Below, one piece after another: positions 5,592 to 28,030 of a DNA stretch of 64,000 nucleotides. Source of the stretch: Trypanosoma brucei (taxonomy: Eukaryota); the NCBI GenBank assembly GCA_000002445.1, contig CH464491.1:2848001-2912000 (forward strand), read 5' to 3'. The translations under genes and the position numbers were made by a program. Numbering within the stretch: position 1 is the stretch's first letter; the number at the start of each line of letters is the position of its first letter. A model generated the notes under the pieces. The model was not told where the DNA came from and made no database searches. It saw only the letters and a program-made list of their open reading frames with translations.

Positions 5592-5625
5592 TTCCAAAGC
5601 ATTACGCAACTCCCACACACGCAAT

Positions 5626-8106: not shown

Positions 8107-9602
8107 GGGAAAGGGGGAAAACAAAAAGATGAGAGCAGGTAAAGAAATACAATGGACCCAGTGTTTATACAGGCATAAAAACATATGAAGAAACGTCTTT
8201 GTGTGTTGTTCTGTTTTCTATTTTATTTTTGTTTTTAAACGAATTAATAAATATATTAAAACGTAATCACCAAGGGGGATCGTTTTTGCAGGGTGGCGTT
8301 TTTTTTCTTACCACACACCATTGAACGGAGGGTGATTTGGTGGGTCTCGCCCGCGCCTTGCCTTTTTAAAAAAAATTAAATATTTCCTCTAATTTACCAC
8401 ACTAATCCCACCTTTTTTTTTTATTTCCCTCTGTCGTTGTTTCTAGTGAAAACTTGAAGCAGGGGAATTTCCCTTTCTTTCACTTCCGTTTATCTTTTTC
8501 ACTTTTACTTAATAAATAAAAAGACTTTATTGTTTTGATTGGAGCTCCTCTTTGAGAGGTTAAATCGGCCTTCCCCACATTGTGCCTAGCTGTGTTACTC
8601 ACTTTACCTGGTGATATTATTTGTTTGTTATTTACTTAGAAACGTCTTTCATGCGGTATGAACCTTGTGTGAGCTTACATATGTGTATTACACAGGGTTG
8701 TATCTGCTCATTTAACATAGATTAAATAATAATGAAATAATATGGTGCATTAGTGGGTATTGAAGGTCGAAAAGTGGGAGGGGGAGGGGGAGGAGGGGCA
8801 AAAACTAATGTGGGATCGACTACATTTAATTGAAAGAAAAAAGCAATTGCCTTGGCAATTCAAATCAGCAACAGGCATTATAGTTTGTAAACGTAGACAC
8901 GTTCCCATGTGTGGCTCAATATATCCACTGTCACTGATACATGCGGGGACGTGTGATTTTTTTTTGAAAATTTGTTTATATTTTGTTTACTTTGATCTCG
9001 TCACTGCCTACCGTTGTTAGTGAAGAGAAGAAAGGAAACAGAGAGTGTCTATACAAAGCATTGAACAGGTATGGATGAAAGGTGAGGCGAAGGGAACACA
9101 GAGCGGAGTTTGTTGGTACATCACGCTGTGCATGCGCAAAGCATCAAGTAAAATACGTTGGCTTCATATATCCGCGAGCCGCTTGACAAGAGGATGTCCA
9201 GAAACATATATGATCCCCATGAATGCGCCTTGTTGCTACATTCTCTTTTTTCTCCTCTTGTCACGATCATTTTAAATTATTACCCGTGTTCTCTTCATAC
9301 GTGCATATAAACTTTTTCCCAAGGGCTGTTCAACCAGGTCTGCTTGCTCCGCCACCCGAAGGAGCTGCGAGGTCCAAAGAGAAGAAGCGGGACCTTGCGG
9401 TTGTTAGATTTCCCCTGGTCCCTGCGCTGGGACGCAGCAACTCACCACTCGCTGTGGTGCCGCAAACCAACGCGAGGTTTTGCTGTGAACAAGTGAAACG
9501 AGCTGGAGAAATAGGGGGAGGAGAGTTGAGAGTGTCGGGGGTGGAAATTGAAATTCTACTTGTACTTGACGCCTCTTCGTCACCCAACCTTTCCCAACAC
9601 TT

Positions 9603-11072: not shown

Positions 11073-11342
11073 GCACATCTGTACGTGAAGAGCGTGCACG
11101 CAGAAGTGGATTGTATGATGCAGTGTAATGTGATGTGCTTTCGTCCAGGTGGGTGTCGTGTTGTCATGGCACAGGATGTAGCTAGTGACCAAATGGATTG
11201 TAGAAGGGAAAAGTGACCATAGAACTCCCACAAAGTGATAATAGACCTAAAAGAGGCGAGGTGTGTCGTCTATGGGCTACGGGACAAATCGCTTGTCAGT
11301 AATCAAAGGAGCAAGTAAAGGGGGATATACACGCATGCGTAT

Positions 11343-11368
11343 AGATATATATATATATATATATATAT
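11343..11368. repeat. (TA)n microsatellite
   Basis: The run atatatatatatatatatatatat is directly visible. Confidence 0.95.
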
Positions 11369-11743
11369 TTGGAGTTTTTTAGGGTGCAGCAAGGTGAGAA
11401 GGAGGTTAAATACCCTCCCCTCGTTTTATCCGCATCCGTCATTTTCCCCCTTTTTCTTCACTTCTCTTCGCTCTGTGCCCTCTTCCTTTTACATATGTGC
11501 GTTTACGATAAGCAGCAAAGGAATAATTTACATATCCAAGTTTCAATCACCAAAGAACGAGAAGGTAGAGTAAACGAAATAGGTTTGAGCAGATTAGGAA
11601 AAAAGTTTAAAAAGGAAGTGAGAAGCAGACAAGCTTGCAACGTTTGCGTGAGAAATAGGGGAAAAAGTGAGGTAAAGAAGGGTGCCTACGGGGGGGGAAA
11701 AAAAAATTATATTTACACATATCACCTAGAAACTCCACATATC

Positions 11744-12595
11744 ATGTCAACCACCTGCACCAAGAATGAGCCTCGTGGCTTCCACCATGACCCATATGGC
11801 ACGCCCCTGCTTGATCAAGGGAGCGAGGAGCGCAAGAATAACGCCGCCCTGAACTTCTTCACGGCTGCCACCTACGCTGACGAGCACCAAAAGCAGGAAC
11901 AATACTCTTTAACAAACTTTGACACGTTAAGTTCTGTTGATCAGATGACTTCTACAGAAGGTGAAGGTGGCATATCCGATAACGGAACGGTGGAATCCAG
12001 CGGACCGTTTGTGGTGACACCAGTCCCTCAACCTACTTCTACAGTCGCCCTTGCCATGGCGTCATCAACTGTTATTGCTGCAGCCGCCTCAGTGGTTCGT
12101 TACGCCTCTGTCGACTTTCGCTTCGGTAGCGCATGGTTTGTGGCGCCGTTCCGTACTTCCGTTGGTGAGATCGTTGTGGTAGAGTATCCACATAACGGCA
12201 GTCTCCATGTTGGACTCGTAAGTTGCATCACAACGACGATCCCACCGACCTTCACAACACTGCGAGCAGCAGAGCAAGCGGGCCTTATGCCTACCGAAGA
12301 GGATCTCATGCAATACCCCCGTCTGGTGCGCCATGCTCGTGAATTCGACCGCCACACAAAGTTGGAGTTACGCACGCATGATCTCGCTTCACTCAGGTCT
12401 GCGCGCGAACTGGCTGAGGAAATGGGAGCACCCATCACATTTATCGATGCTGAGTGGCTGTTGGATCTGACAGCCGTAACGTTCCTGGTGCAGGTATGGG
12501 GCAACATGGAGCAAGTGGATCGCCTAGCTGATGAACTTGCCGCGCGCGAAGGAGCGGAGGTTGTGTTTACTTATCCTGCAGTGAGGTATGAGTAG
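11744..12595 (+). CDS. Hypothetical protein with a PSP1 C-terminal-like region
   Basis: The ORF opens at 11369, but 11369-11743 is (TA)n and A/G-rich UTR-like sequence, so I take the in-frame ATG at 11744 (MSTTCTKNEPRG...). The C-terminal half (...FRFGSAWFVAPFRTSVGEIVVVEYPHNGSLHVGLV...LMQYPRLVRHAREFDRHTKLELRTHDLASL...VVFTYPAVRYE) resembles the PSP1 C-terminal conserved domain. The assignment is tentative. Confidence 0.4.
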   Translation: MSTTCTKNEPRGFHHDPYGTPLLDQGSEERKNNAALNFFTAATYADEHQKQEQYSLTNFDTLSSVDQMTSTEGEGGISDNGTVESSGPFVVTPVPQPTSTVALAMASSTVIAAAASVVRYASVDFRFGSAWFVAPFRTSVGEIVVVEYPHNGSLHVGLVSCITTTIPPTFTTLRAAEQAGLMPTEEDLMQYPRLVRHAREFDRHTKLELRTHDLASLRSARELAEEMGAPITFIDAEWLLDLTAVTFLVQVWGNMEQVDRLADELAAREGAEVVFTYPAVRYE

Positions 12596-12654
12596 AAGCG
12601 GCAATCGTTGCATCCACATATTTTTCTCTTTGTTAGGTGTAGGTTGTTTCACTG

Positions 12655-12686
12655 TTGCTGTTGGTGTTGGTGTTGGTGTTGGTGTC
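12655..12686. repeat. (GTTGGT)n microsatellite
   Basis: The run gttggtgttggtgttggtgttggtg is directly visible. Confidence 0.9.
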
Positions 12687-14204
12687 TCTTCCTCCCTTCT
12701 TCGCAGTGATGGCTGTCCGATAATTTCCGCTCTCATTACTGTAAAGAAGTGGGTTTCTGCATCTGCATATATATATATATATATAAAAGGGCGGCAGAAA
12801 GAGCTAAGCGGAAAGGCATCACATACCTTTCTTTAAGGGGGGAGGGGGCTCACGCGAATGTTGGCAAGCAGGAGATACGTGTGAAAAAGAGCACACAGCT
12901 ACGTTTATACATGTATATTTATATAAATATGTGTTGCTTACATGCACAAAAGTGTACGGATTGAATTGCAGGAATAGCCGCGAAGGTAGGATTTAGGTGC
13001 GCGCCGGCCTCTAGAAACGGGAATTAGAGACGTTTCTTTTTTTTTTCAGTGAACAACGGTAAGGAACACGAATAAGATGCTCGCACGATGCGTGTGTGCT
13101 CGTGCGTCTAAATGCGTATGTATGCATATTTAACTGTGTAGCGTCGAAAGGAATGAAGAAAAAGGTAACGTGGGGCGAAGGTAAGAAAGTAATAATACCA
13201 CACTTTTATTCTTCCTCGATTTTGATGTCGTTGGTGTGCTTTGTTTGTTTGTTTGTCTTTTTTTTTTCTGTTGTTTGTTTGTTTTCCCATCTTAACTTTC
13301 TGACTTCACCAAATGGGGCCCACGTACGCTCCGCGACCAGACTTTCTTTTTTTTTTCTTTAGAGTTCGTTTAGGGCAGCGGTGGCGCCTCTTCATTTTTT
13401 TTTCTCCTCTTGTATTATTATTTTCCTTTTGTTTTCCTTGTCTGTGTGTTTTGTTTTTGTTTTATCTTTTTGGATTCATTCACTTGTTTCTCATTTCAGT
13501 TGTGCTTTGGTGGCGCCCACATCCACTGCAGGACGAGATGAGATGAATCATTAAAGTGAAAATGGTGAGGATTCGAGGAAAGGAGTTATAATAATAATAA
13601 TAATTGTTGTTATTATTATATTCCCAATGTTATTATTAATATTATTATTATTATTGTCATAATTATTATTGATGTTGTTTCCGGTTCAGGAAAAGGTAGC
13701 AATGAAAGGGATGTGAAAGAATGGTAGTAGAAGAGTGCTTCAGCTTGTTTTGTTTTGTTTTCTTTTCTTTTCTTTTTTTTTTTTGCTGTTTGCTCTCAAT
13801 ATATAATAGAGAGGGGAGGGGAGGGAAAAAAAAAAGAGGTAAAGAGGGAGGAACAACGAAAGAAAAAGGAATAACAAAATAAGGTGAGCAATTAATGAAC
13901 CACGGAATGAAGCAAAAAATAAAAAAACAAAGAAGTGAAAAGTGAAAAGGAAAGAAAAAGAAAAAATGACGTTCACGAAATTATTTACTCCATTGAGTGG
14001 GTCACATGATATATAAATGGATAAATGAAAAAGAGAGAAGTAAGGCGTAGCGATCAGCACATGCCTTCGTAGAGGTGCTGTGTTATATTAATTTATTCCC
14101 GCACAGCTCCACACAAGAACGGAGAGAAAAATGAAAAGAAAGGAAGTAGATAATAAAGAGGAAAAAGAAAATATTAATTTTGTGGTAAAAATAAATAAAT
14201 AAAT

Positions 14205-14208
<4 letters not shown>

Positions 14209-14246
<38 letters not shown>
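14209..14246. repeat. (TA)n microsatellite (about 19 units)
   Basis: Directly visible. Confidence 0.95.
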
Positions 14247-14250
<4 letters not shown>

Positions 14251-16009
14251 TATAATTAAATAGAGGTGGGATCGGGGGGAAGAACAAAATGAATAAATTC
14301 CCAAAACATTTTCTTTTATTTACAATACTGCACTGCACAAATTTACAAAAATTATATATGTATTGATGTATATTTAATTATTCGCATCTGCAAGCAAAAA
14401 AAAAAATCACAATAAAGTGAAGAAGAAGAAGAAAAGTGGGCCAGGAAAAAAAGAAAAAGAAAAGAAAAGAAGGGTGGGAGAAACTGATGCCCATTTATTG
14501 TTGGAAATGTAGAAAGTAGAAAAGGACAAAGAAAAAAAAAAGGTAATATACATGTGTTTATATTTATATATGTCTTTAGGTACATTTTCTTTTCGCCCAC
14601 TTGTGTTCTTCCTTTCTTTCTTTATTTGCTGTGTTATGTGTGTGTGTGTGTGTGTGTGATTGTTGTGTTGTTGTTTGTTGTTGTTGTTTTTCCGGTTTCA
14701 CACTTATGCGTTTCCTGTCCCCTCCACTCAGTCCCTTTTTTTTCTGTGCGGTAACAAAAAAAAAAGAATAATGATTAAATAGTAAACAAATACAAAAAAG
14801 AAAAAAAAAGAAAGAAACTTACAATTGAGCAAAGACAAAAAAAACAAAAAATGGGGGATGCCAGTGAAAGGAGGTGGAAACTGAGAAATGAAACGAAAAA
14901 GAATTTGTTTTTTTTTTCAATAACTAACTAATTAATTAATTAATTAATTTTTTTTATTTGCTTTCGTGTAATAACGGAAGAGAAAGGAAACAAACAAAAA
15001 AAGAATGAGTTAATCAATCAATCACACACACATGCACACACATACACGCGGAAAAAGGGAAAGAAAGAGGGGGGAAAATGTGGAAATAATAATAATTTGT
15101 GATGATGACGACAATTACTATTGTTTATTACTAAAATCAACAACAACACGATGAACTAATGGATGAATGAATGGATGAATGAATGAAAAAGGAAAAAGAA
15201 AATGAAGGCGTGAGGAAAACACGTAACGGACAGAAATGTAATCGGAACCCACGAGTGAAGGTTTTGGGAAAGGAAAAAAAAATGAAAAAAATAAATAAAT
15301 TAGCACAAAAGGGGGGAAACGGAGATCACAAAAAAACTTATCATTTCTGTTTTTTTGTCATGTCACCAAAACACGAAGCGTGAGGAAATATTAACTCCTC
15401 TTTTTTTTCCCCCCTCCACCCCTTTTCTCTTTTGTGCATATGTGTTATATTATTTATTAATTCATTTACTGTTCCTCCTCTTCCTGTTTTATTCTACACA
15501 TTGTGCTCGTCCGTGTGTACTCTCGTCAACAGCTCACATCCACCATTTTCATCACCAGCCGGTTTCCTTTTTTTTTTTCCTTATCCCTTCGGTTCTTTTT
15601 GCTTGGTTTTATCTTTATTCCATTTTTTTTGTTTTGTTTTGTTTTCTTTTAGAGCAGCTCACCTGGACGCGTCTTCCAGTTTTCATTTATTCCTTTTAAA
15701 TCCCTTCGCCTTTTTTTTTGCTCGATTTTGTCCGTACTGAATTGAACTAGATTTTGCATTAATCCGTTGCTAAGATGAAAAAACAAAACAAAACGAAATA
15801 AGGAAGTGGATGTGATAGGGGAAAGGGGGAAAGGGGATCCAACGAGACGCGCATGGCAGCCGTAAACACAATTGAAGGGAGGTTGAATGGATAATAAATA
15901 ATAATAAAAAAAAGAAAGGAAGAAAGGAAGGAAGGAAAGGAAGTGCAAGTATAAGTGAGTGGGTGGGGAGAGGAAGGGAAAAAGAAAAAGAAAAAGGAAC
16001 AGTGAGGAT

Positions 16010-16024
<15 letters not shown>

Positions 16025-16042
<18 letters not shown>

Positions 16043-16079
16043 TGTGCGTGCGTGCGTGTGTGTGTGTGTGTGTGTGTGT
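16025..16079. repeat. Compound (TA)n-(GCGT)n-(GT)n microsatellite
   Basis: The sequence tatatatatatatatatatgtgcgtgcgtgcgtgtgtgtgtgtgtgtgtgtgtgtg is directly visible. Confidence 0.95.
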
Positions 16080-17893
16080 TTGCGTAATAAACGCATGTCT
16101 CACCCAATTCGTTTCTTTTTTCTTTTTTTATATCCTTTTCTTACAATCTACGCGTAACACATGCCAAGGTGTTCATATACTCATTCATGTATTTACTCTT
16201 ATTTATATTGATTCGTTTATATGACCCACTCCAGCACTCCTTTCATCCTTTGAGTTTAACACGCTGCTCTTTGGAGTTCACCCTTTCTCTCTCCCCCCCC
16301 CCTCCCCCTCCCACACACTCACACACACCTTCTTTTTTTTTTAAATTTGCGTGTGTGGTTTCCTTTTATTTTCCTATATATATAAATAAATAATATCTTT
16401 GTTGACAATAACAGTCGGTGGGGTAGGTTTCCCGTTTTGTTCGGTATGAGAGGCGCCGCTGTAATGTCTGTTGCGCATTCTCTTTCTTTCTCTCTCATTT
16501 GCTCTCGCAACCACCAGGCTTTGTCGTCATTGTTGTATTTTTAGTTTAGTTTAGTTCTACGACGCTTTTTTTTTTCTGGTTTTTGTTTCATTACTGCACT
16601 CTGATATGTGTGCATTCGTATATGCGTGTAATGTTCGATACCGGACGCTGTTGATTTAAAGTGTATTTGTTATTTTTTTTTCTTTTAAAAAACCTGTAAT
16701 GTTCCTGGCACTTCCCGCATCCTAATGCCCTAACCCTGCCAATGATAGAATGTTGGCGGCAAGGTGTAGGGGAATGAAGAAATAAAGAAAAGGGAGAAGA
16801 AGAAGGAAAAGAAAAGAAAAGGAAAAGGAATAGAGGTCTACGGGGAAGGGAAAACACTCATATGTATATAAATAAACACAAACGAATATATTCATATTTA
16901 TTTACATGAAGGTGTATAGAGAGGGCTTTGGTCTGATCATTTGGAAGAAATGAATGAAAAGACGTTTTGAGAGGTATCCTTCTCCCTTTTCTTTTTTCGT
17001 TTAATTTCTTCTTCATAATTCTGTCGGCGTTCTCTCCTTCTCTTTTTTTCCGGTTCCTAACGCAGATACGCGCCATAATGAAACTGAATTAGCATCGGCT
17101 GCACATAAGGAACAACGGTGAAAGGAGGCGAGTAAGAATGAGTGAATGAGAAAGCAGAATGGAGGCGTTGTCACGCGGATCTGTGTAGACCTCATTCTTT
17201 CCTTTCTTTTGTTTTGTGTTTGTTTGTTGTTGGTGATGATGTGGTGACGTTCTGCTCCCTTTCGTTTGTTTCATCACCTGTTTTTGTCACGGTCACTTTC
17301 TCTCTCTTTTTTTTTTGCTTTTGGAAGACACCACCGCCAAATCACGCCGCAAATATGGCAGTTTTGTATCGAAAACACCCGGGCGCGAGAGAATGTAGAA
17401 CCCCTTCCCCACAGTAGGAATGAATTTGCAATATGTGGAAGAAGAAAATTTTCCTCGAAAGAGGAAGAGATATTGAGTAAAAGAATGCAGAGAGAAGGAG
17501 AGATAGAGGGAGAAAAGCGAAAAAGAAAAAGAAAAGGGCAGCTTCAGCCGGTCAATAACACTTTCGCACACCGCCACAAACCCACAAGCGCAGCACATAC
17601 ACGTGGCTTCAAGTATGTATAGGAAATGCGTGTGACGCTATTTTACAGTTGAAGCCCCGGGTGAGCGGCGGGGGAGGTATTTTCATCCTCTCCCTCTGCT
17701 GTTTTCTTTTTCATTTTTTCCTGTTATCTTTGCTTGTGCTTTACTATTTATAAACCCTCTATTACTTGACTCACCACCTATACTTCTACAGCAGTTGCCT
17801 CTGTTGTTGCCGTCGGTGGGCCCGCATACAGAAGAAACGCACTCGCCAACCGCAGTGTCAATCTCCTCACCATCTGTTGTTTGCCTTCCAGGC

Positions 17894-19068: not shown

Positions 19069-19558
19069 CACAAAAGTAGTCGGTGTCACAGTGGCATTTC
19101 TCTCTTTATTTCGATGCTTTTAAACCAGCGTCCAGGGCAAGCAGCAGGAACGGCCTTAACAACACAATTCAGGGCTATCCCTAACCCCTCTCGTCTTACT
19201 CCATAATTGTTGCATGTTAGGTTTTATGTTGTTCCTTCCAACGCGTACTTGTACAAGTTTGCCCAGTTTTCTGAGTACTCTTATCACTTTCCCCTACTTA
19301 TTCTTGGATCCCTTAAACTTCGCATTTTCTGCGCCCGTTACGGACGTTCAAAGAAAAAAATAGTGTGTTCCCGGGTGTAGCAAGAGCGACGACAACCGAG
19401 GGGCCAGCGGGGGAGCTCTATTTAGGCTGCAGCACTTTGGATTTCCTCTCTGTTCCAGCTTCCTTTGACTAACTGTGCTTGTCCAGGCAGGGCGGTGTGC
19501 CCTGTTTGTTCGGTATAGACACAGGCAGTAGAATTCGGGTATAGATAATAACGACAAA

Positions 19559-22500
19559 ATGAGTGCACAGTTCAAAAAAGAAAATATTAAAGGGGAGGAA
19601 GGGGAGGGAAGGAAGGGAAAACCATTGCACAAGATGGCTCCCGGTGGCTGCGATGCGATCTTGCAGGAGGCGCTATTGTTGGGTTCATATGCTGATTTCT
19701 GGAAACTTGCCACCGGTTATACAAAGGCGCTATGCAATGTATACGTCGCCCCAAACCCCTATCCAACTCCTGGTGGAGGAAATGCAGCCGATGGACACAA
19801 CCCGAACTCAGCTACCCAAAATATGGTAAAAGTGACGACGACGGTACCTTGTAGCCTTAGGACCTTTGCCACGTTCATCACAGCGCCACGAAGCGTGCGA
19901 TACTGCGAGGACAACGTCATGTTTTGCGATATCATTGAAAGAGATAACAAGACAAAGTTGTTTCACACCGCATACGCAGGCGATCCTCCATGTGATGTGG
20001 TTGCCGTGCATATAACGGCGGCGTACAAAGTGCCGGAGAACACCACCGAAAACAATCCCTTGTGCAAGTTTGTGGCAAGCCTTCGTGACGATAAACGCCG
20101 GGGCCACGTGCCACAACCCTCGTCAACGATATTCGTTTACGCTATGAAGAGTGCTGAGCACCCCAAGACACCTCCTTCGCCGCCGTACGTGCGTATGCGC
20201 TTTCACTTATCTGCCTTTATCGCCTATGAAATACCAGGGCCACTCGTTCGAGTGGTGTTCGTTCACGCACCAGGAGATCGTACTCCAAAGATGGTTGACC
20301 GGTGCATAACAAAAATGGTCTGTGTGCGGAACTTATGCCAAATGCTTGAGTGGCTTAACACAGGTGGCCCTCTCACGGAACCTGTCATCTGGGAGAATCA
20401 GCGGCCACAAGAAACGCCAAATGCACACTCCGTTGGGGCCGAAAACACACGCGAGCCCAATCCTCTCGTTGAGGAGCCATCAGATGTAGTGTTACAAGGG
20501 GACAACCCATCCTCTGCTCCAGGCCGTGTATTTCAAACATTGTTTGCCCTGCATGCTTCAGCCGCGTGGCGTTTGGTCCTTCAACATGAAGGATGCACGG
20601 TGGAGGAATGCGAAGCACGATGTTGCTTTCCTGCACCGGCTTTTCTAAAGGCTTACCGTTTCGCGACAACTATCGCATGTTCTCTGGATATTTTCCGCCG
20701 ATTAGTGAGCGACCCGATGCAGTTGCACAGGTACGACCCGAGTGTAGAGAAAGTAGAGCTCCTCCACTCACAAAAGGGTGAGGATACCGTTCACATACAT
20801 TTCAAGCAACTGTCTCATTCTGCTCCCAAGCAGGATGCCTGCATTCTAACATCTAACGCACTCTTGCAACCCGACGAGGCACACCGATGGCGTTTATACC
20901 AGCTGACAGACAACATAAATGTTGTTTACGTGCAGAATGGTATTCAAAGCACTGAAATTCCTGCTGCTGGCGCGTGCGACCGACAGGTAGTGTATGCAAT
21001 GGGATACGTCGCCATCCCATCAGTGAAGCGACAACCCACGGGAGCTGGGGATGGCAATGAAGGCAGTGAGGCGCTGCGGGTCTACCATGTCGTCTGCGTG
21101 GACAACAACACTGCTTCATTCGCGGATAAGCAGCTTGTGACTATTCGTCAGCATTTTTTCCGCCTTACTGGAATACGAAATTTGTGCGATGAAGCGAAGA
21201 GCAAACCTCCTACCTGTTCTTTACCTCCTCACACAACTCGGGATGTTAATGATTTCTTCGAGAGCGGTACGTTAGCAGGATTTACAGAGGTGGAAACGCT
21301 TGAAGACGCCTCCCTTGAAAGAACAAGCAGCACGAATAATGTACGTAGACAGCTCGATTTAGTCGATGGGATGGAAGGCTACACCAGCCACGCGACTGCG
21401 CATGTGGACACCATGATGAACTCTTCTTCATTGGAGAAGCTTCACCAGTTTCTCTTGCACTTTGCACCCCATTATTGTATAGAGCACAAACAAAGTGAGC
21501 TCGACAACAAACTTGTTCCAGCAGCTGCTGCACTGCAACCCTCACCATTCACCGAGCAACAGCAAATATCCCCTTCAGTTTGGCAAGCACACGCGCCAAC
21601 ACCCGATCAGCAGAAACAGGAAGTGCAAACTGCTCAACTGGTGCAGCGTGGAAAAGTAAGTGCACCTCCAGCTATTCAGCAGAGTGGAGGAAAGGCAGCT
21701 TTGACATGGGACACCAGTGTGGAAGAGGTAGTGCCTGACAAGCAGAAACAGGAAGTGCAAACTGCTCAACTGGTGCAGCGTGGAAAAGTAAGTGCACCTC
21801 CAGCTATTCAGCAGATTGGAGGAAAGGCAGCTTTGACATGGGACACCAGTGTGGAAGAGGTAGTGCCTGACAAGCAGAAACAGGAAGTGCAAACTGCTCA
21901 ACTGGTGCAGCGTGGAAAAGTAAGTGCACCTCCAGCTATTCAGCAGATTGGAGGAAAGGCAGCTTTGACATGGGACACCAGTGTGGAAGAGGTAGTGCCT
22001 GACAAGCAGAAACAGGAAGTGCAAACTGCTCAACTGGTGCAATGTGGAAAAGTAAGTGCACCTCCAGCTATTCAGCAGATTGGAGGAAAGGCAGCTTTGA
22101 CATGGGACACCAGTGTGGAAGAGGTAGTGCCTGACAAGCAGAAACAGGAAGTGCAAACTGCTCAACTGGTGCAACGTGGAAAAGTAAGTGCACCTCCAGC
22201 TATTCAGCAGAGTGGAGGAAAGGCAGCTTTGACATGGGACACCAGTGTGGAAGAGGTAGTGCCTGACAAGCAGAAACAGGAAGTGCAAACTGCTCAACTG
22301 GTGCAACGTGGAAAAGTAAGTGCACCTCCAGCTATTCAGCAGAGTGGAGGAAAGGCAGCTTTGACATGGGACACCAGTGTGGAAGAGGTAGTGCCTGACA
22401 AGCAGAAACAGGAAGTGCAAACTGCTCAACTGGTGCAACGTGGAAAAGTAAGTGCACCTCCAGCTATTCAGCAGATTGGAGGAAAGGCAGCTTTGACATG

Positions 22501-25500
22501 GGACACCAGTGTGGAAGAGGTAGTGCCTGACAAGCAGAAACAGGAAGTGCAAACTGCTCAACTGGTGCAGCGTGGAAAAGTAAGTGCACCTCCAGCTATT
22601 CAGCAGATTGGAGGAAAGGCAGCTTTGACATGGGACACCAGTGTGGAAGAGGTAGTGCCTGACAAGCAGAAACAGGAAGTGCAAACTGCTCAACTGGTGC
22701 AGCGTGGAAAAGTAAGTGCACCTCCAGCTATTCAGCAGATTGGAGGAAAGGCAGCTTTGACATGGGACACCAGTGTGGAAGAGGTAGTGCCTGACAAGCA
22801 GAAACAGGAAGTGCAAACTGCTCAACTGGTGCAACGTGGAAAAGTAAGTGCACCTCCAGCTATTCAGCAGATTGGAGGAAAGGCAGCTTTGACATGGGAC
22901 ACCAGTGTGGAAGAGGTAGTGCCTGACAAGCAGAAACAGGAAGTGCAAACTGCTCAACTGGTGCAACGTGGAAAAGTAAGTGCACCTCCAGCTATTCAGC
23001 AGAGTGGAGGAAAGGCAGCTTTGACATGGGACACCAGTGTGGAAGAGGTAGTGCCTGACAAGCAGAAACAGGAAGTGCAAACTGCTCAACTGGTGCAACG
23101 TGGAAAAGTAAGTGCACCTCCAGCTATTCAGCAGAGTGGAGGAAAGGCAGCTTTGACATGGGACACCAGTGTGGAAGAGGTAGTGCCTGACAAGCAGAAA
23201 CAGGAAGTGCAAACTGCTCAACTGGTGCAACGTGGAAAAGTAAGTGCACCTCCAGCTATTCAGCAGAGTGGAGGAAAGGCAGCTTTGACATGGGACACCA
23301 GTGTGGAAGAGGTAGTGCCTGACAAGCAGAAACAGGAAGTGCAAACTGCTCAACTGGTGCAATGTGGAAAAGTAAGTGCACCTCCAGCTATTCAGCAGAG
23401 TGGAGGAAAGGCAGCTTTGACATGGGACACCAGTGTGGAAGAGGTAGTGCCTGACAAGCAGAAACAGGAAGTGCAAACTGCTCAACTGGTGCAATGTGGA
23501 AAAGTAAGTGCACCTCCAGCTATTCAGCAGAGTGGAGGAAAGGCAGCTTTGACATGGGACACCAGTGTGGAAGAGGTAGTGCCTGACAAGCAGAAACAGG
23601 AAGTGCAAACTGCTCAACTGGTGCAATGTGGAAAAGTAAGTGCACCTCCAGCTATTCAGCAGATTGGAGGAAAGGCAGCTTTGACATGGGACACCAGTGT
23701 GGAAGAGGTAGTGCCTGACAAGCAGAAACAGGAAGTGCAAACTGCTCAACTGGTGCAACGTGGAAAAGTAAGTGCACCTCCAGCTATTCAGCAGAGTGGA
23801 GGAAAGGCAGCTTTGACATGGGACACCAGTGTGGAAGAGGTAGTGCCTGACAAGCAGAAACAGGAAGTGCAAACTGCTCAACTGGTGCAACGTGGAAAAG
23901 TAAGTGCACCTCCAGCTATTCAGCAGAGTGAAAAAGGGGCTATCGACAGAAAAGAAAAGAACGTTCATATGAAGAATTTTATGCAGGCGATTCACACTGA
24001 AGGCGAGCCCGTTCATAGGAGAAGAGATGATGAAAGACTGGGGTTGCAACCATTACAGAGAAAGAAAGGTTTCCAATCCATCCCAACCAATCTTGAAGAG
24101 GAAGCATCCCCAGTACAGGTGATCGGTGAAGAATCAAAACGCAATAGTGGGGAACCGCAACCAGTTGGGGGGCAAGGGGATTGCTTGGCGCGAGCAGTGC
24201 GGGAGGGACAGGAGAAATTAACACGACTTACGGGGGGTTGGTGTAAAGGACGCATAGAGAAAACTTCTGCTTTCGGAGAAAAAGATAGCCCCGTACAAGA
24301 AGTTCAGGTAAAGGAGAATATCCCGCAAGTAACCTGTGGCTTGAGTGTGTGGCCCACGCCAGATGCATTGAAAGTTAGGAGGGAAGGAATGAGCGTCTTG
24401 AAATTGTCACAGCGGCTGGAGCTTCGCCCCGCTCGGCAGGAACCACGGCGGCAGGAAGAGTTGATATGGCCCATGAAGGGAGGATGGCAAGGATCTTCGG
24501 GTTCAGTAAGTGATGGGAATGAAGGATTGTTATTGCCGATGGGATCGCGGTCTGTGGATACAGATGACGTATGGGAAGAGCGCGTTAAATTATCTGACGG
24601 AACGTTCGGCCGGAAGGTGAACAACAAAATTCAGGTAAACGTCCGGGCGTGTCGTAACATGCCAGCGGCAACGCAAAAAAAACATATGCTGTCTATTCAG
24701 ATCAGCACATCTTCTACGGAGGCGCAAACATGGTTGGTACCTCTGACCCTCAATCCCATCTTCCCCCATCAAACAATTTTACTGGACGAACCAGAAGATG
24801 ACACGGTCAACGTTACAGCGATAGTAAAAACTGAAGATGATCGCATGAAGCGACTGGGGGAAGCAGTTGTTTCGCTGCGCTATTTGCATGTGTTAGATTC
24901 GTATACCCGCTGGATTTCGCTGATATGTAATGTAGGCACAAGCGATGCTTTCGAATGTGGTGACGTTTGCATTACTTTCCGTCGCGGTACAGAAGAAGGA
25001 CCCAATGGTGTCGTCTCAATTAATGGAAAGCAATGCGAACAGCAGCAACTGCAGTGGGGGGAAGCCGAAAGGACACAAGAAGAGGAGAAACTGCGGCGTT
25101 ATGTCCGTGATGTGCTTGTATCCGCGGGGAATGCAAACCTCCACTTGTTGGAGTGGTTAGTAGGGAACTGCTACCGTAAAACACCAGGGGAAATAGATGC
25201 GTTTATTAGGCGGTATAGGAAAGATGATACAATAATGCTAACTGTGTTTGAGGTGTGCGGACTTAGAACGGAAGTCGGGGTCCCACTACTGCGTCCGGTG
25301 CCTTGCCACGTTTTGGTTGAAACAAGCAGAGGATCGTGTACAACATCCCCCGTAAACCTTCAAGGACAAGCAGCTCCGCTGAACATGGTGTTTCACCTGG
25401 TAATAGGGGTGAACGAACCCATTCGTCTCATCGTATTTACCGGCGACACCGCGGTTGGTGAAACGGTTATTACCACTGCCCAAGATGGCACGCGCACTCG

Positions 25501-28030
25501 CGTGTTGGTTTCGCGGGCCGGCACGGAGGAAGCGGTACCTTGTGGTACGATCACTGTAGGTACGAGGCGCGGTAGCGTATCTGAATTGACTGAAAGCCCC
25601 AAACCACTTCGAGTGGAAGTAAATGAAGAGAACAGCAAGCGCATGGCGTACCTACACCACATATTATGGATGAACGCCCGAAGCTCACTTCACAAGCTGG
25701 ATGTAATTGCCGCTTCCCCACTGGAGTCGGGCCGTCTACTGGAAAAGTTTGGACCGACAGCGAAGTGGTACGATCTTCGAGTTTCCTTGAGGCACTGGAG
25801 GCCCACATCTGCTGCGTGGGATAGCCCAATAGTTGACAATACACTTGGCACTCACAAGAGAGAAAAAGACGGCGATGAGTTGCTGCAACATGTACAAACG
25901 GTATACCGCAGGGTATTCGCTGTGGTTCACATTGGGTTGCAGTACCATAAAACTTTTGAGGTCCGTACCGACTGTGCTGGTGAAGTGCACTTCAATGAAA
26001 CCTTCACTTTCAGTGGTGTTTGCCCTCGGCGGGATGAGGTTTTTGTGTCTGTCATCGGGAAGGGTCTCACTGGCACCGAGGATCATGATCTGGGAGTAAC
26101 CGTCCTTTCCATGAAATCACTGAAGTTACAACAGCGAACCCACATGACTGTTCCGTTGGTGCGCCAAGCGGGAACTCGTGGTGCTCGCTTCCAAGGATCA
26201 CTGTACTTGGAACTGTTTGCGGTTAACTTTGACGGTGTTGCCGCTAACGACTACGAGGCAGAAATGTGTCGGCCTTCTATTCGGAGCATTCTTTACCACC
26301 ACGCACCTAGAGAGTTGCATAAGGCAGAGTGCTTCCTTGGTAGCTACGCAAGCCGTGAAAAGGACTGCCTACGAGAGCTACGAAAAACCTATGGGCCGGA
26401 CATTCTCAAACTACCCATGGCGATACGGCTAATGAGCCTGAACCAACTGACACCTTATCCTAACAGTTACTTGAAAGTGTACCTCAATGATACCCCAGTG
26501 ATACGCACTGAGAAGCTATCCACCGATGATCCTATTTTATTCGACCCAGAAGACAGCAAAAGTAGGGCAAGGGTACTCGTTGATGATGTCTATGACGTTA
26601 GGTTACGGTTCAAGGTGAAGCAAACGCGATTTTTACTAACAAAGACTCTTTGCACGGGTGATTTTTCCTTACGAGGTATGGTGGTATCGCAGGAGGGCGT
26701 ATACTGGATCCCTTTGGTTGACAGTGAGGGTGTGAGTGTCGGGAATCTCTGTGTTGAACTGAAGTCAAGTGCTTTTGTCTACAATGATACTGTGAAAAGG
26801 GCTAAAGATTTTGTGGAGGACGACGTCGTGTCGTTAATTCGGAGGTACAGACCGTCTAAGGTGCCCATCATGCATATGATAATGGAAAAAGTCTCAAATC
26901 GGGAGGCAGCCCACTCCGAAATCAGAAGGGAGGTCGTTACCGAACCGGTTGCAGCTACAGTGTTTATATCTGTAGAACTCCTTTCCATTCATCGTGTGTT
27001 TTTCGAGCAAACCGAGGAAGACGATCAGCAGGTGTGGCCAGAAGGTGAGACGGAATATGTTGTGACAGCAAAATACGGTGGCGATGAAAGTAGTACTACA
27101 ACCAAAAACTTCACACCACAAGGGAACAGCAGCACCATTCGCCTAGACGTGCGCACCTTTCGCGAACGGAAAGCACACAAGCTCATCATCACTGTCCGAC
27201 GTCAGCGCACCCTTCCACCGCCTTGCCCTGCGAAATCGTCGGAAGCGCAGAACGGCAAGATTCCGCGTTTTGGTCCATTTTGTAAAGCCACCCCTGTTGT
27301 GTCGAAGCAAAGGCCGCGTGTTATAATGCCCCAGCCTCCCTCCCTTTTACATGAACCTGAATATGTAGGTTGCGCAGTCATCTCTCTCCGTGCGCTTTTC
27401 ACCCCTTTGCTCTACAGCACCGGGGAGCTCGTGACGGTACCGCTGCTTTACCTTCCACCGAACGCGAATGGAGGGCCGGTTGTACCGGACGGCCGGGACC
27501 ATACCGGCAGTGGTGTACATTCTGAAGGGGAAGTTGTCGGAAACATTGCGTTCAGGGTGCGCCTTCCAGCGTATGAGCAGATCCCTTCATGGTTGCAATT
27601 CGACGCCACAACCCTCGAAAAAGAAATTAAGCTGGACCGAGCGGCCATTCGATACTATGAGGAGCGCATTCGCAATATTTTAGCTGAGCACAAATCACAC
27701 TGTTTGTGGAATATGCACTACAGATTGTATGAAAAATACGTTGCCAGTGGCCACTGGCATCGACTGCTGCGTGGCTGGAGAAATGCGTTGCTGCGGCAAT
27801 TCCCCTCAGCAAATAACAGCAACGACGTTCCAACATCTTCCATGTGGTACGCCCCCTCGACAGCATCCGATCGCGACTTGAGGAGCGATAATATGAACAG
27901 CATCTTGGAAAGACTGAAAGGAGAGTTTAGCAGTGACGACAGTTTGATGGGCGATGTCGCGGAAACAGAAATGGCAGGGGGAGAAAACTCGATAGAAACA
28001 GGAAGCGGGAGCGAAAGCGAAAGTGACTAA
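19559..28030 (+). CDS. Giant repeat-containing protein (2823 aa): unique N-terminal region, about 18 x 44-aa tandem repeats, then a C-terminal region with several C2-like domains
   Basis: A single uninterrupted ORF. The central block repeats VPDKQKQEVQTAQLVQRGKVSAPPAIQQ[S/I]GGKAALTWDTSVEEV. Three C-terminal segments have C2-domain-like beta-sandwich patterns: ...KIQVNVRACRNMP...LDEPEDDTVNVTAIV...; ...FEVRTDCAGEVHFNETFTF...; ...YLKVYLNDTPVIRTEKLSTDDPILFDPED.... The start could instead be the internal Met at 19634 (MAPGGC...). A pyrimidine-rich tract lies at 19190-19350. Confidence 0.8.
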   Translation: MSAQFKKENIKGEEGEGRKGKPLHKMAPGGCDAILQEALLLGSYADFWKLATGYTKALCNVYVAPNPYPTPGGGNAADGHNPNSATQNMVKVTTTVPCSLRTFATFITAPRSVRYCEDNVMFCDIIERDNKTKLFHTAYAGDPPCDVVAVHITAAYKVPENTTENNPLCKFVASLRDDKRRGHVPQPSSTIFVYAMKSAEHPKTPPSPPYVRMRFHLSAFIAYEIPGPLVRVVFVHAPGDRTPKMVDRCITKMVCVRNLCQMLEWLNTGGPLTEPVIWENQRPQETPNAHSVGAENTREPNPLVEEPSDVVLQGDNPSSAPGRVFQTLFALHASAAWRLVLQHEGCTVEECEARCCFPAPAFLKAYRFATTIACSLDIFRRLVSDPMQLHRYDPSVEKVELLHSQKGEDTVHIHFKQLSHSAPKQDACILTSNALLQPDEAHRWRLYQLTDNINVVYVQNGIQSTEIPAAGACDRQVVYAMGYVAIPSVKRQPTGAGDGNEGSEALRVYHVVCVDNNTASFADKQLVTIRQHFFRLTGIRNLCDEAKSKPPTCSLPPHTTRDVNDFFESGTLAGFTEVETLEDASLERTSSTNNVRRQLDLVDGMEGYTSHATAHVDTMMNSSSLEKLHQFLLHFAPHYCIEHKQSELDNKLVPAAAALQPSPFTEQQQISPSVWQAHAPTPDQQKQEVQTAQLVQRGKVSAPPAIQQSGGKAALTWDTSVEEVVPDKQKQEVQTAQLVQRGKVSAPPAIQQIGGKAALTWDTSVEEVVPDKQKQEVQTAQLVQRGKVSAPPAIQQIGGKAALTWDTSVEEVVPDKQKQEVQTAQLVQCGKVSAPPAIQQIGGKAALTWDTSVEEVVPDKQKQEVQTAQLVQRGKVSAPPAIQQSGGKAALTWDTSVEEVVPDKQKQEVQTAQLVQRGKVSAPPAIQQSGGKAALTWDTSVEEVVPDKQKQEVQTAQLVQRGKVSAPPAIQQIGGKAALTWDTSVEEVVPDKQKQEVQTAQLVQRGKVSAPPAIQQIGGKAALTWDTSVEEVVPDKQKQEVQTAQLVQRGKVSAPPAIQQIGGKAALTWDTSVEEVVPDKQKQEVQTAQLVQRGKVSAPPAIQQIGGKAALTWDTSVEEVVPDKQKQEVQTAQLVQRGKVSAPPAIQQSGGKAALTWDTSVEEVVPDKQKQEVQTAQLVQRGKVSAPPAIQQSGGKAALTWDTSVEEVVPDKQKQEVQTAQLVQRGKVSAPPAIQQSGGKAALTWDTSVEEVVPDKQKQEVQTAQLVQCGKVSAPPAIQQSGGKAALTWDTSVEEVVPDKQKQEVQTAQLVQCGKVSAPPAIQQSGGKAALTWDTSVEEVVPDKQKQEVQTAQLVQCGKVSAPPAIQQIGGKAALTWDTSVEEVVPDKQKQEVQTAQLVQRGKVSAPPAIQQSGGKAALTWDTSVEEVVPDKQKQEVQTAQLVQRGKVSAPPAIQQSEKGAIDRKEKNVHMKNFMQAIHTEGEPVHRRRDDERLGLQPLQRKKGFQSIPTNLEEEASPVQVIGEESKRNSGEPQPVGGQGDCLARAVREGQEKLTRLTGGWCKGRIEKTSAFGEKDSPVQEVQVKENIPQVTCGLSVWPTPDALKVRREGMSVLKLSQRLELRPARQEPRRQEELIWPMKGGWQGSSGSVSDGNEGLLLPMGSRSVDTDDVWEERVKLSDGTFGRKVNNKIQVNVRACRNMPAATQKKHMLSIQISTSSTEAQTWLVPLTLNPIFPHQTILLDEPEDDTVNVTAIVKTEDDRMKRLGEAVVSLRYLHVLDSYTRWISLICNVGTSDAFECGDVCITFRRGTEEGPNGVVSINGKQCEQQQLQWGEAERTQEEEKLRRYVRDVLVSAGNANLHLLEWLVGNCYRKTPGEIDAFIRRYRKDDTIMLTVFEVCGLRTEVGVPLLRPVPCHVLVETSRGSCTTSPVNLQGQAAPLNMVFHLVIGVNEPIRLIVFTGDTAVGETVITTAQDGTRTRVLVSRAGTEEAVPCGTITVGTRRGSVSELTESPKPLRVEVNEENSKRMAYLHHILWMNARSSLHKLDVIAASPLESGRLLEKFGPTAKWYDLRVSLRHWRPTSAAWDSPIVDNTLGTHKREKDGDELLQHVQTVYRRVFAVVHIGLQYHKTFEVRTDCAGEVHFNETFTFSGVCPRRDEVFVSVIGKGLTGTEDHDLGVTVLSMKSLKLQQRTHMTVPLVRQAGTRGARFQGSLYLELFAVNFDGVAANDYEAEMCRPSIRSILYHHAPRELHKAECFLGSYASREKDCLRELRKTYGPDILKLPMAIRLMSLNQLTPYPNSYLKVYLNDTPVIRTEKLSTDDPILFDPEDSKSRARVLVDDVYDVRLRFKVKQTRFLLTKTLCTGDFSLRGMVVSQEGVYWIPLVDSEGVSVGNLCVELKSSAFVYNDTVKRAKDFVEDDVVSLIRRYRPSKVPIMHMIMEKVSNREAAHSEIRREVVTEPVAATVFISVELLSIHRVFFEQTEEDDQQVWPEGETEYVVTAKYGGDESSTTTKNFTPQGNSSTIRLDVRTFRERKAHKLIITVRRQRTLPPPCPAKSSEAQNGKIPRFGPFCKATPVVSKQRPRVIMPQPPSLLHEPEYVGCAVISLRALFTPLLYSTGELVTVPLLYLPPNANGGPVVPDGRDHTGSGVHSEGEVVGNIAFRVRLPAYEQIPSWLQFDATTLEKEIKLDRAAIRYYEERIRNILAEHKSHCLWNMHYRLYEKYVASGHWHRLLRGWRNALLRQFPSANNSNDVPTSSMWYAPSTASDRDLRSDNMNSILERLKGEFSSDDSLMGDVAETEMAGGENSIETGSGSESESD
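21599..23926 (+). repeat. 132-bp (44-codon) tandem repeat array, about 17.6 copies, over 97% identical
   Basis: The period was measured directly: gtgcctgacaagcagaaacagg recurs at 21731, 21863 and onward, every 132 nt. The only variation is a few SNPs, giving R/C (cgtgg vs tgtgg) and S/I (agtgg vs attgg). Confidence 0.95.

What the first reader, a model, noticed from the sequence alone, without database searches (positions are those of the whole stretch)
19559..28030. 2823-aa protein with about 18 near-identical 44-aa repeats embedded between a unique N-terminus and a multi-C2-domain C-terminus
The 132-bp unit is over 97% identical across about 17.6 copies, which implies recent homogenisation (gene conversion or unequal crossover). 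The only coding polymorphisms are R/C (QRGK vs QCGK) and S/I (QQSGG vs QQIGG), and they occur in runs. Copies 4 and 14-16 carry Cys, and the S/I copies are also clustered, which suggests block duplication. The C-terminal 1300 aa has at least three C2-like modules, suggesting membrane or cytoskeleton attachment. In trypanosomes, giant repeat-plus-C2 proteins are typically flagellum-attachment-zone or cytoskeletal and are often immunodominant antigens. The 824-aa ORF on the opposite strand (21575-24049) is a repeat shadow, not a gene.
Basis: partly seen in the sequence, partly recalled or inferred. Interest (0 to 1): 0.65.

Follow-up and report, generated by a model that had tools for sequence, protein, structure and literature searches.

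The report
Giant START–repeat–C2 protein of Trypanosoma brucei
This is a real 2823-residue Trypanosoma brucei gene whose "unique" N-terminus is in fact two START lipid-binding domains, joined by a repeat spacer of variable length to a row of membrane-binding C2 domains, so it looks more like a lipid-transfer tether than a purely structural antigen.

Summary
ORF 19559-28030 (+) is intact. It contains a 132-bp array (21609-23930) of 17.6 copies, with only three variable nucleotides: R/C, S/I and one silent site. The antisense 824-aa ORF is a repeat shadow. The window is T. brucei TREU927 chromosome 11, and the protein is XP_829160/Q383I3, annotated as hypothetical. By gene counting I infer it is Tb927.11.10960.

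C2 domains are confirmed: two by Pfam in this protein, a third by Pfam in orthologues, a fourth probable and a fifth unproven. Each is followed by a helical linker.

The array is length-polymorphic, with 17.6, 10.6 and 8.6 copies in three T. brucei-group assemblies that share identical flanks. T. congolense has about 13 34-aa units at the same site, and T. cruzi has none.

My best reading is a peripheral lipid-transfer or lipid-sensing tether. The START domains would handle lipid, the C2 array would anchor to a membrane, and the repeats would act as a fast-evolving spacer. The FAZ/cytoskeletal/antigen idea is untested, because I found no localisation data. I rate it a moderately interesting new variant of a known kind.

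The parts
19559..28030 (+). Complete ORF of 2823 aa plus stop. It is identical to T. brucei TREU927 XP_829160.1 / EAN80048.1 / UniProt Q383I3. I infer the gene ID Tb927.11.10960.
   Evidence: The gene ID comes from counting + strand genes between delta-tubulin (Tb927.11.10930, ORF at 9603) and NUP149 (Tb927.11.11080, ORF from 61286).
19634..19636 (+). Second in-frame ATG (Met26), a possible alternative start that aligns with the N-termini of the orthologues.
   Evidence: Alignments. A polypyrimidine tract at 19442-19451 followed by AG lies upstream of both ATGs. The question is not resolved.
19640..20368 (+). START domain 1 (aa 28-270), helix-grip fold.
20522..21202 (+). START-like domain 2 (aa 322-548), a diverged duplicate of domain 1.
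   Evidence: hhalign of D1 against D2 gives probability 94.7%, E 6e-8, over 190 columns end to end. The order of secondary-structure elements matches D1. There is a weak Pfam Polyketide_cyc2 (SRPBCC) hit at E 0.13. AF2 confidence here is low (<50).
21281..21307 (+). Short linear motif F-T-E-V-E-T-L-E-D (aa 575-583). It is conserved in all five Trypanosoma orthologues just after START2.
   Evidence: Invariant columns F575, V578, T580, L581, E582 and D583; alignment. Function unknown. An FFAT-like reading is only an idea.
21609..23930 (+). Tandem array of 17.6 x 132 bp, encoding 44-aa units (aa 684-1458).
   Evidence: Copy number is 8.6 in L003 and 10.6 in L004, with the same flanks.
21575..24049 (-). 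Antisense 824-aa ORF, a repeat shadow and not a gene.
   Evidence: it is 44-aa periodic and its frame is one of two stop-free frames of the unit. It has a TTG start. All neighbouring genes are on the + strand.
23933..24619 (+). Non-repetitive charged linker (aa 1459-1687) with no detected domain.
   Evidence: Pfam finds nothing here. There is a short conserved patch, VWPTPDALKVR, shared with T. congolense.
24620..24994 (+). C2 module 1 (aa 1688-1812).
   Evidence: Pfam C2 covers aa 1690-1788 at 19.5 bits alone. The whole protein scores 31.8 bits against a gathering cut-off of 22. The orthologous module scores 27.8 bits in T. cruzi and 24.5 bits in T. rangeli.
25070..25228 (+). Helical linker H1 (aa 1838-1890).
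   Evidence: Conserved among orthologues. hhalign gives H1-H2 83.5% and H1-H3 66%.
25229..25576 (+). Module 2 (aa 1891-2006), a probable C2.
   Evidence: hhalign to module 1 gives 69% over 89 columns. The only Pfam signal is a weak C2_SYDE hit in T. congolense at E 0.14.
25616..25759 (+). Helical linker H2 (aa 2020-2067).
   Evidence: H2-H3 88.5%.
25760..26236 (+). C2 module 3 (aa 2068-2226, with an insert).
   Evidence: Pfam C2 covers aa 2118-2199 at 20.7 bits, E 4.9e-4. hhalign M1-M3 gives 95.6%.
26252..26404 (+). Helical linker H3 (aa 2232-2282), of the form ...ILYHHAPRELHK...LRELRKTYGPD.
   Evidence: The same motif occurs as three stand-alone tandem copies in P0033.
26405..26782 (+). C2 module 4 (aa 2283-2408).
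   Evidence: The orthologous module is Pfam C2 in T. grayi at 23.2 bits, above the gathering cut-off, covering profile positions 4-104 of 104. P0016 gives E 0.0019 and T. cruzi E 0.022. hhalign M1-M4 gives 85.6%.
26792..26941 (+). Helical linker H4 (aa 2412-2461).
26942..27634 (+). Module 5 (aa 2462-2692), beta-rich with a long basic insert. It is C2-like only by pattern and is unproven.
   Evidence: There is no PDB sequence hit with the profile. hhalign to other modules gives at most 32%. Its second half plus H5 is the part best conserved in paralogues across kinetoplastids.
27650..27838 (+). C-terminal helical module H5 (aa 2698-2760), of the form ...YYEERIRNIL...HYRLYEKYVASGHW...
   Evidence: It is shared with many paralogues at their C-termini.
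27839..28027 (+). Low-complexity Ser/acidic tail (aa 2761-2823).
   Evidence: Translation. It is not conserved in T. cruzi.

Best explanation
The locus is one protein-coding gene of T. brucei. It encodes a soluble 2823-aa protein with no transmembrane segment, and its parts run in this order:
- two START-type lipid-binding domains;
- a short acidic motif conserved across Trypanosoma;
- a tandem array of 44-residue units;
- a charged linker;
- three to five C2 membrane-binding modules, each followed by a helical linker of about 45 residues;
- a low-complexity tail.

Most likely mechanism (inferred from the architecture, not shown): the C2 array docks the protein on an anionic membrane surface. 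The START domains take up, deliver or sense a lipid at that membrane or an apposed one. That would make it a lipid-transfer or lipid-sensing tether, in the manner of CERT or the extended synaptotagmins.

The repeat array would be a spacer rather than a catalytic part, for two reasons:
- It is absent from T. cruzi and T. rangeli, where the two halves are joined by about 164 residues.
- It grows and shrinks by unequal recombination, so the distance between the START end and the C2 end differs between species and even between T. brucei-group strains.

What is shown: the gene, the array and its length polymorphism, the C2 modules, and the START fold of domain 1.

What is inferred: lipid binding, membrane docking, the spacer role, and which membranes are involved.
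For: Gene and identity:
- The protein is 100% identical to XP_829160.1/Q383I3 of T. brucei TREU927.
- The context is a polycistronic + strand unit.

START domains:
- An AF2 model built from a 5-orthologue alignment has pLDDT 70-86 for aa 30-268.
- In Foldseek against PDB, 47 of the top 50 hits are START/StAR-related domains; the other three are di-domain ARO/CYC cyclases of the wider START (SRPBCC) superfamily (best E 4e-9).
- Domain 2 matches domain 1 end to end (hhalign 94.7%).
- UniRef names a T. cruzi N-terminal fragment 'START domain-containing protein'.
- Pfam START is the top, sub-threshold hit in orthologue P0001.

C2 modules:
- Pfam C2 scores 31.8 bits for the whole protein, above the gathering cut-off of 22, with two stretches.
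- Module 4 is Pfam C2 in T. grayi.
- Module-to-module hhalign gives 69-96%.
- 45 homologues across kinetoplastids are multi-C2 proteins.

No transmembrane segment: there is no 19-residue window with mean hydropathy typical of one.

Spacer:
- 17.6, 10.6 and 8.6 units in three assemblies with identical flanks, while the C-terminal 1369 aa differ at only 12 residues between TREU927 and L003.
- T. congolense has about 13 x 34-aa units at the same position.
- T. cruzi and T. rangeli have none.
Against: - Pfam START does not hit the T. brucei protein at all, so START membership rests on a predicted fold from a 5-sequence alignment.
- Domain 2 is modelled with low confidence.
- I found no second membrane-targeting element: no transmembrane segment, and only a by-eye FFAT-like string that is not conserved. 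Which two membranes would be bridged is therefore unknown.
- By eye, the C2 modules lack the canonical calcium-binding aspartate clusters, and I did not test lipid binding in any way.
- Paralogues with the same C2/helix scaffold lack START domains, so the scaffold has a function of its own, which could be cytoskeletal.
- The 44-aa unit shares a motif (LVQ.G..KVS..QQ....L.W) with the T. congolense unit. Only 29 of 2000 shuffles score as high. This hints that the unit is more than an inert spacer.
- I could not retrieve any localisation, expression or phenotype data.
Confidence: 0.5

Rival explanations
1. This is the first reader's view: a structural cytoskeleton- or FAZ-associated linker and repetitive antigen. 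The C2 modules would hold the plasma membrane, and the repeats would bind microtubules or FAZ filaments. The protein's main roles would be mechanical and, incidentally, immunogenic. This is partly compatible with the best explanation.
For: - There is a trypanosome precedent. WCB is a C2-domain protein proposed to attach the subpellicular array to the plasma membrane (PMC8168904).
- Large tandem arrays are typical of trypanosome cytoskeletal proteins (established knowledge: MARPs, FAZ1, GM6).
- The repeat unit keeps a motif between T. brucei and T. congolense, as a binding repeat would.
- START-less paralogues share the C2/helix scaffold.
Against: - I found no localisation or serology for this gene.
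- The repeats are absent in T. cruzi and T. rangeli and replaced by acidic repeats in P0001, so a conserved filament-binding role for them is unlikely.
- A purely structural role does not explain two conserved START domains.
- I did not run a coiled-coil predictor, so that feature of cytoskeletal proteins is untested.
Confidence: 0.3
2. The START-like domains are degenerate, ligand-free modules used for protein interaction or autoregulation. On this view the protein is a multi-C2 membrane-trafficking or signalling scaffold and has nothing to do with lipid transport.
For: - The sequences are too diverged for Pfam START.
- Domain 2 is poorly modelled.
Against: - Both domains are conserved over their full length in five Trypanosoma species.
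Confidence: 0.15
3. The array, or its copy number, is an assembly artefact.
For: - A short-read assembly (CZPT02001451.1) breaks 39 nt inside the array.
- The array in L004 carries 1-nt indels that break the ORF there.
- The three copy numbers come from three different sequencing technologies.
Against: - The same unit, the same partial last unit and identical flanks are present in three independent assemblies.
- The differences are whole multiples of 132 bp.
- T. congolense has an array at the same site.
- The existence of the array is therefore secure. Only the exact counts are open.
Confidence: 0.03

Closest known systems
CERT / STARD11 and other multidomain START lipid-transfer proteins (human STARD family)
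   Different: There are two START domains in tandem. Targeting is by 3-5 C2 modules instead of a PH domain plus an FFAT motif. The linker is a 17.6-unit tandem repeat of variable length. The sequence is too diverged for Pfam START. I did not find this architecture described in the literature I could search.
Extended synaptotagmins / tricalbins, including T. brucei E-Syt (PMC8093936)
   Same: A lipid-transfer module is joined to a C-terminal row of C2 domains. In E-Syts, the C2 domains dock to the plasma membrane at ER-PM contact sites (abstract).
   Different: The lipid module here is START, not SMP. There is no N-terminal transmembrane hairpin and no Pfam SMP hit. This is an analogue, not a family member.
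GRAMD1/Aster/Lam sterol transporters and plant C2-GRAM-VASt proteins such as VAD1 (from established knowledge)
   Same: A StART-like domain is combined with lipid-binding targeting domains, and the plant forms carry C2 domains.
WCB, the T. brucei C2-domain protein of the plasma membrane-microtubule corset (Baines & Gull 2008, cited in PMC8168904)
   Same: It is a trypanosome protein with C2 plus repetitive sequence, and no transmembrane segment.
   Different: By my recollection, WCB has a single N-terminal C2 domain and no START domain.
Kinetoplastid multi-C2 paralogues, for example T. brucei Q38A06 (P0015, 1837 aa), Leishmania 'C2 domain protein' (P0009) and T. conorhini 05766/05767
   Same: They share the C2-helical-linker modules and the conserved C-terminal module.
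   Different: They have no START-like domains (hhalign <1%) and no 44-aa array. All are uncharacterised.

Membership tests
C2 domain (Pfam PF00168) | The sequence profile score reaches the curated gathering cut-off. | tested here: met
   The whole protein scores 31.8 bits against a cut-off of 22, with two stretches at aa 1690-1788 and 2118-2199. The orthologous modules score 27.8 bits (T. cruzi M1), 24.5 bits (T. rangeli M1) and 23.2 bits (T. grayi M4).
C2 domain (Pfam PF00168) | An eight-stranded beta-sandwich fold in each of the five modules. | not tested
Modules 2 and 5 rest on hhalign alone (69% and at most 32%). A profile of module 5 found nothing in the PDB.
C2 domain, calcium-dependent subtype | Clusters of aspartates in loops 1 and 3 that bind calcium. 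| not tested
   I only read this by eye on the translation. No D-x-x-G-x-S-D-P-Y-like loop is visible, which suggests the modules are calcium-independent. I made no residue-level alignment to a solved C2 domain.
START / StARD lipid-transfer domain | The sequence profile (Pfam PF01852) reaches the gathering cut-off. | tested here: not met
   There is no START hit in the T. brucei protein at E<=1 for the whole N-terminus, or at E<=10 for the sub-domains. The best result is E 0.049 (13.4 bits against 22) in orthologue P0001.
START / StARD lipid-transfer domain | A helix-grip fold that superposes on solved START domains. | tested here: met
START / StARD lipid-transfer domain | A hydrophobic cavity that binds one lipid molecule. 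| not testable with these tools
   This needs model coordinates and cavity analysis, or biochemistry.
Lipid-transfer proteins of membrane contact sites | Two separate membrane-targeting determinants, or localisation at a contact site. | tested here: inconclusive
   One determinant, the C2 array, is present. There is no transmembrane segment. The only FFAT-like string (DFFESGT, aa about 562-568) is not conserved, while the conserved FxEVETLED motif is of unknown function. Localisation is unknown.
Extended synaptotagmin family | An SMP domain and an N-terminal transmembrane hairpin. | tested here: not met
   Pfam finds no SMP domain, and no hydrophobic segment compatible with a transmembrane hairpin is present.
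Trypanosome repetitive cytoskeletal/FAZ antigens | Retention in detergent-extracted cytoskeletons or FAZ localisation, and recognition by infection sera. | not testable with these tools
   No literature was found by accession, inferred gene ID, old-style IDs or repeat peptide. The stored TrypTag supplement tables are cut.
Trypanosome repetitive cytoskeletal/FAZ antigens | A long, near-identical in-frame tandem array. | tested here: met
   17.6 x 44 aa, with 99% nucleotide matches.

The most novel reading that the evidence does not exclude
This would be a Trypanosoma-specific class of lipid-transfer tether: twin START domains fused to a multi-C2 membrane anchor. A tandem-repeat spacer sets and rapidly retunes its reach, expanding and contracting between species and strains (164 aa in T. 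cruzi, about 830 in T. congolense, and 744-1140 in the T. brucei group). It would work at a parasite-specific membrane interface such as plasma membrane-subpellicular ER or the flagellar-pocket/FAZ ER.
Probability: 0.3. Interest if true: 0.6.

Novelty: new variant of a known kind. Interest (0 to 1): 0.45.

Why it matters
Surveys based on Pfam find very few START proteins in trypanosomatids. One for L. donovani found a single one (PMC10341546). Non-vesicular lipid traffic in these parasites is poorly mapped.

A hidden twin-START protein with a C2 anchor would add a candidate lipid transporter that profile searches miss, in an architecture I did not find described.

The length-polymorphic repeat also gives two practical things:
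- a natural experiment on linker length;
- a strain-typing marker, and possibly a serological marker, for the T. brucei group.

If the protein turns out to be cytoskeletal instead, it would link lipid-binding domains to the membrane skeleton, which would also be of interest.

Tried and rejected
- **Word-indexed homology search.** The C-terminal 1369 aa gave no hits. The N-terminus gave only one. I got past this with the exhaustive representative search and an alignment query.
- **AF2 with a 2-sequence alignment.** It failed (pLDDT 28.8) and I did not use it.
- **PDB sequence searches.** The C-terminus, the N-terminal profile and the module 5 profile found nothing meaningful.
- **Fold search against afdb50.** The library was not available.
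- **Module 5 as a C2 domain.** Not supported.
- **Literature searches.** I searched by accession, T. congolense ID, repeat peptides, the inferred new ID and plausible old IDs. All gave zero relevant hits.
- **TrypTag supplement.** The stored tables are truncated and the gene was not found.
- **Tb11.01.2730.** This is a TbPLK BioID hit localised to the bilobe, and I considered it as a possible old ID for this gene. I rejected it as improbable. It is 15 ID steps before NUP149 (Tb11.01.2880), whereas this gene is 12 genes before NUP149. The supplements that could settle it are not held.
- **Exact-protein look-ups.** The giant protein and the upstream DnaJ gene are not on record. The strain comparison was obtained through the Got1 neighbour instead.
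- **FFAT motif.** I judged this by eye only. The best-looking string is not conserved, so I do not claim it.
- **Rfam and tRNA scans of the window.** Nothing found.
Full report
**Observation.** The ORF 19559-28030 (+) is open for 2823 codons. Tandem Repeats Finder reports one array at 21609-23930 with period 132, 17.6 copies, 99% matches and no indels. A unit-by-unit comparison finds only three variable positions:
- Position 38 is A/G and silent.
- Position 39 is C/T and gives Arg/Cys. The Cys form is in units 4 and 14-16.
- Position 76 is G/T and gives Ser/Ile. The Ile form is in units 2-4, 7-10 and 16.

The haplotype string of units 2-7 nearly recurs in units 8-13, which points to a 6-unit block duplication. 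All four allele combinations exist for site pairs 38/76 and 39/76, so exchange within units has also occurred. The antisense ORF 21575-24049 is 44-aa periodic and exists because the unit has two stop-free frames of six. It has a TTG start and runs against a + strand polycistron.

**Identity of the locus.** An alignment-based search returned a 2823-aa protein that is 100% identical over the N-terminal region used as query, and whose length equals the ORF's. It is XP_829160.1 / EAN80048.1 / UniProt Q383I3 of T. brucei brucei TREU927, annotated 'hypothetical protein, conserved' or 'C2 domain-containing protein', on a 5.26-Mb record.

Two anchors in the window fix the gene ID by counting:
- The ORF that runs off the window end from 61286 has zinc fingers and VFGT/VFDT FG repeats. 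This matches TbNUP149 = Tb11.01.2880 = Tb927.11.11080.
- I take the tubulin ORF at 9603 (Pfam Tubulin) to be delta-tubulin, Tb927.11.10930; this assignment rests on the counting fit, not on a sequence match.

Three genes after the first anchor and twelve before the second both give Tb927.11.10960. This is an inference and I did not read it from a database.

**C-terminal half.** Pfam C2 scores 31.8 bits for the whole protein, above the gathering cut-off of 22. The two stretches are aa 1690-1788 and 2118-2199.

An exhaustive HMMER search with aa 1647-2823 found 45 homologues:
- Orthologues are present in T. congolense, T. cruzi, T. grayi, T. vivax and T. rangeli.
- Multi-C2 paralogues are present in T. 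brucei (Q38A06), T. conorhini, Leishmania, Leptomonas, Phytomonas and Angomonas.

The orthologue alignment resolves five beta-rich modules, each followed by a conserved helical linker of about 45-60 residues:
- Modules 1 and 3 are Pfam C2 and match each other (hhalign 95.6%).
- Module 4 matches module 1 at 85.6%. Its orthologue in T. grayi is Pfam C2 above the cut-off (23.2 bits, full-length match).
- Module 2 is probable (69%).
- Module 5 is not demonstrated.

'At least three C2 modules' is therefore confirmed.

**N-terminal half.** Pfam finds nothing at E<=1. An AF2 run with a 2-sequence alignment failed. A second run with five orthologues gave pLDDT 70-86 for aa 30-268. That domain is a canonical START fold:
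- In Foldseek against PDB, 47 of the top 50 hits are START/StAR-related domains and the other three are di-domain ARO/CYC cyclases of the wider START (SRPBCC) superfamily; best E 4e-9, and the START-domain hits have target-normalised TM 0.57-0.75.

Residues 322-548 are modelled poorly, but they have the same order of secondary-structure elements and match domain 1 end to end (hhalign 94.7%, E 6e-8, 190 columns).

Three independent hints agree:
- UniRef names a T. cruzi N-terminal fragment 'START domain-containing protein'.
- Pfam START is the top sub-threshold hit in orthologue P0001 (E 0.049).
- Polyketide_cyc2 (SRPBCC) is the top weak hit for domain 2.

Only the orthologues carry these domains. 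Paralogues do not (hhalign <1%), except for a weak 21% signal in the unidentified P0019. No transmembrane-like segment exists. Just after START2, the motif F-x-E-V-E-T-L-E-D is invariant in five species.

**The repeats in evolution.** Using the Got1 neighbour as a handle, I retrieved the locus from two other assemblies:
- L003 is FN554974.1. I recognise this as T. b. gambiense DAL972 chromosome 11, although the tool does not print the organism. It encodes a 2427-aa product, which is 2823 minus 9 x 44, with 8.6 units.
- L004 is GCA_003543875.1. I believe this is a T. b. equiperdum long-read assembly. It has 10.6 units, with 1-nt indels that break the ORF there.

The flanks are identical in all three, and the motif counts are 18, 11 and 9. 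The C-terminal 1369 aa differ at only 12 residues between TREU927 and L003, so the array evolves far faster in length than the rest of the protein does in sequence. The same R/C and S/I sites are polymorphic in L003, where Cys is the majority. A short-read assembly breaks 39 nt inside the array.

Across species the picture is as follows:
- T. congolense has about 13 units of 34 aa at the same position. They share the motif LVQ.G..KVS..QQ....L.W with the T. brucei unit. The similarity is suggestive only: 29 of 2000 shuffles score as high.
- P0001, of unknown species, has acidic repeats.
- T. cruzi and T. rangeli have no array, and only about 164 residues lie between START2 and the first C2.

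**Interpretation.** The architecture is START-START, a conserved motif, a variable spacer, then (C2-helix) x 3-5. It has no transmembrane segment. This is the logic of a multidomain lipid-transfer or lipid-sensing protein such as CERT, or of E-Syts with START in place of SMP (PMC8093936). One end binds a membrane and the other handles a lipid. I give this reading 0.5.

The cytoskeletal/FAZ/antigen reading remains possible and is partly compatible with the first. Its precedent is WCB (PMC8168904). I give it 0.3 because I could obtain no localisation or serology.

The remaining weight goes to two further rivals:
- The START domains may be degenerate, ligand-free modules (0.15).
- The array, or its copy number, may be an assembly artefact (0.03).

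**Novelty.** The gene is in the databases as hypothetical, and its C2 content is auto-annotated. I did not find the twin START domains of the T. brucei protein, the START plus multi-C2 architecture or the strain-level copy-number variation in the searchable literature. A Pfam-based survey of Leishmania lipid-transfer proteins lists only one START protein with no anchoring domain (PMC10341546). I rate this a new variant of a known kind, with interest 0.45.

Noticed in passing
window 61286-64000 (+), arrays 61936-62561 and 63256-63521: An ORF running off the window end has CxxC zinc-finger motifs and 20-aa FG repeats (PAATPFKSVF[G/D]TQSSGDAKP). It matches TbNUP149 (Tb927.11.11080 / Tb11.01.2880, 'FG (VFGT) 267-388'). 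About half the units in the first array read VFDT rather than VFGT, so they have lost the FG dipeptide.
   Followed up: partly
window about 12600-17000: An AT-rich stretch (GC 0.33-0.43) is packed with microsatellites (TA, AT, TG, TTTG, TTA and purine-rich 12-24-mers). It lies between the 11369 gene and the DnaJ gene, with no long ORF. It is an unusually long intergenic or UTR region for this polycistron.
   Followed up: no
window about 48000-61200: GC skew turns negative at 48-54 kb. The stretch 52.7-61.2 kb has no ORF above about 145 aa on either strand, and no tRNA or Rfam hit. I did not establish what occupies these 8.5 kb.
   Followed up: partly
window 21281-21307 (aa 575-583) and aa about 562-568: The acidic motif F-x-E-V-E-T-L-E-D is invariant in five Trypanosoma orthologues. 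In T. cruzi and T. rangeli it is preceded by an acidic tract. T. brucei alone also has DFFESGT nine residues upstream, which resembles an FFAT core. A possible VAP-binding site was not scored.
   Followed up: partly
P0003 (T. congolense TCIL3000_11_11660) aa about 676-1120; P0001 aa about 700-900: Orthologues carry different arrays at the same site. T. congolense has about 13 x 34 aa (GDNDKGILVQAGQQLKVSSTKGTQQCEDGTTLAW). P0001 has acidic EEVEEGEGEEL-type repeats.
   Followed up: partly
L004 1-5600 (GCA_003543875.1, CM010682.1): The array in this assembly is 6 nt short of 10 full units plus the partial unit. The gene is called as two products (865 aa and 881 aa). These are probably uncorrected long-read indels rather than a pseudogene.
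   Followed up: partly
literature: Tb11.01.2730 (possibly within window 1-12000): A TbPLK BioID hit localised to the bilobe/hook complex is still cited under an old-style ID (PMC4551316, PMC4695855, PMC12222847). By ID arithmetic it should lie three or more genes upstream of the finding, near delta-tubulin or CFAP58. The mapping is unresolved.
   Followed up: partly
P0033 (227 aa) and linkers H1-H3 (window 25070-25228, 25616-25759, 26252-26404): The helical linker motif (..Y.P..L.....LL.KY.G.E..L...L..KYGPEP) also occurs as three tandem copies in a small protein with no C2 domain. It therefore seems to be an independent module with no Pfam family.
   Followed up: no
P0019 (2491 aa, unnamed Logan assembly) aa 236-300: This is a distant homologue of the C2 region. 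It has a weak START-like signal at the same spot for both domain profiles (hhalign 21% and 10%). It may be a more distant orthologue with one START domain.
   Followed up: no
window 39871-44988 (+): A 1705-aa ORF whose copy in related assemblies carries a Beta-prop_VPS8 Pfam hit. It is a probable VPS8/CORVET subunit, four genes downstream of the CH-domain gene.
   Followed up: no
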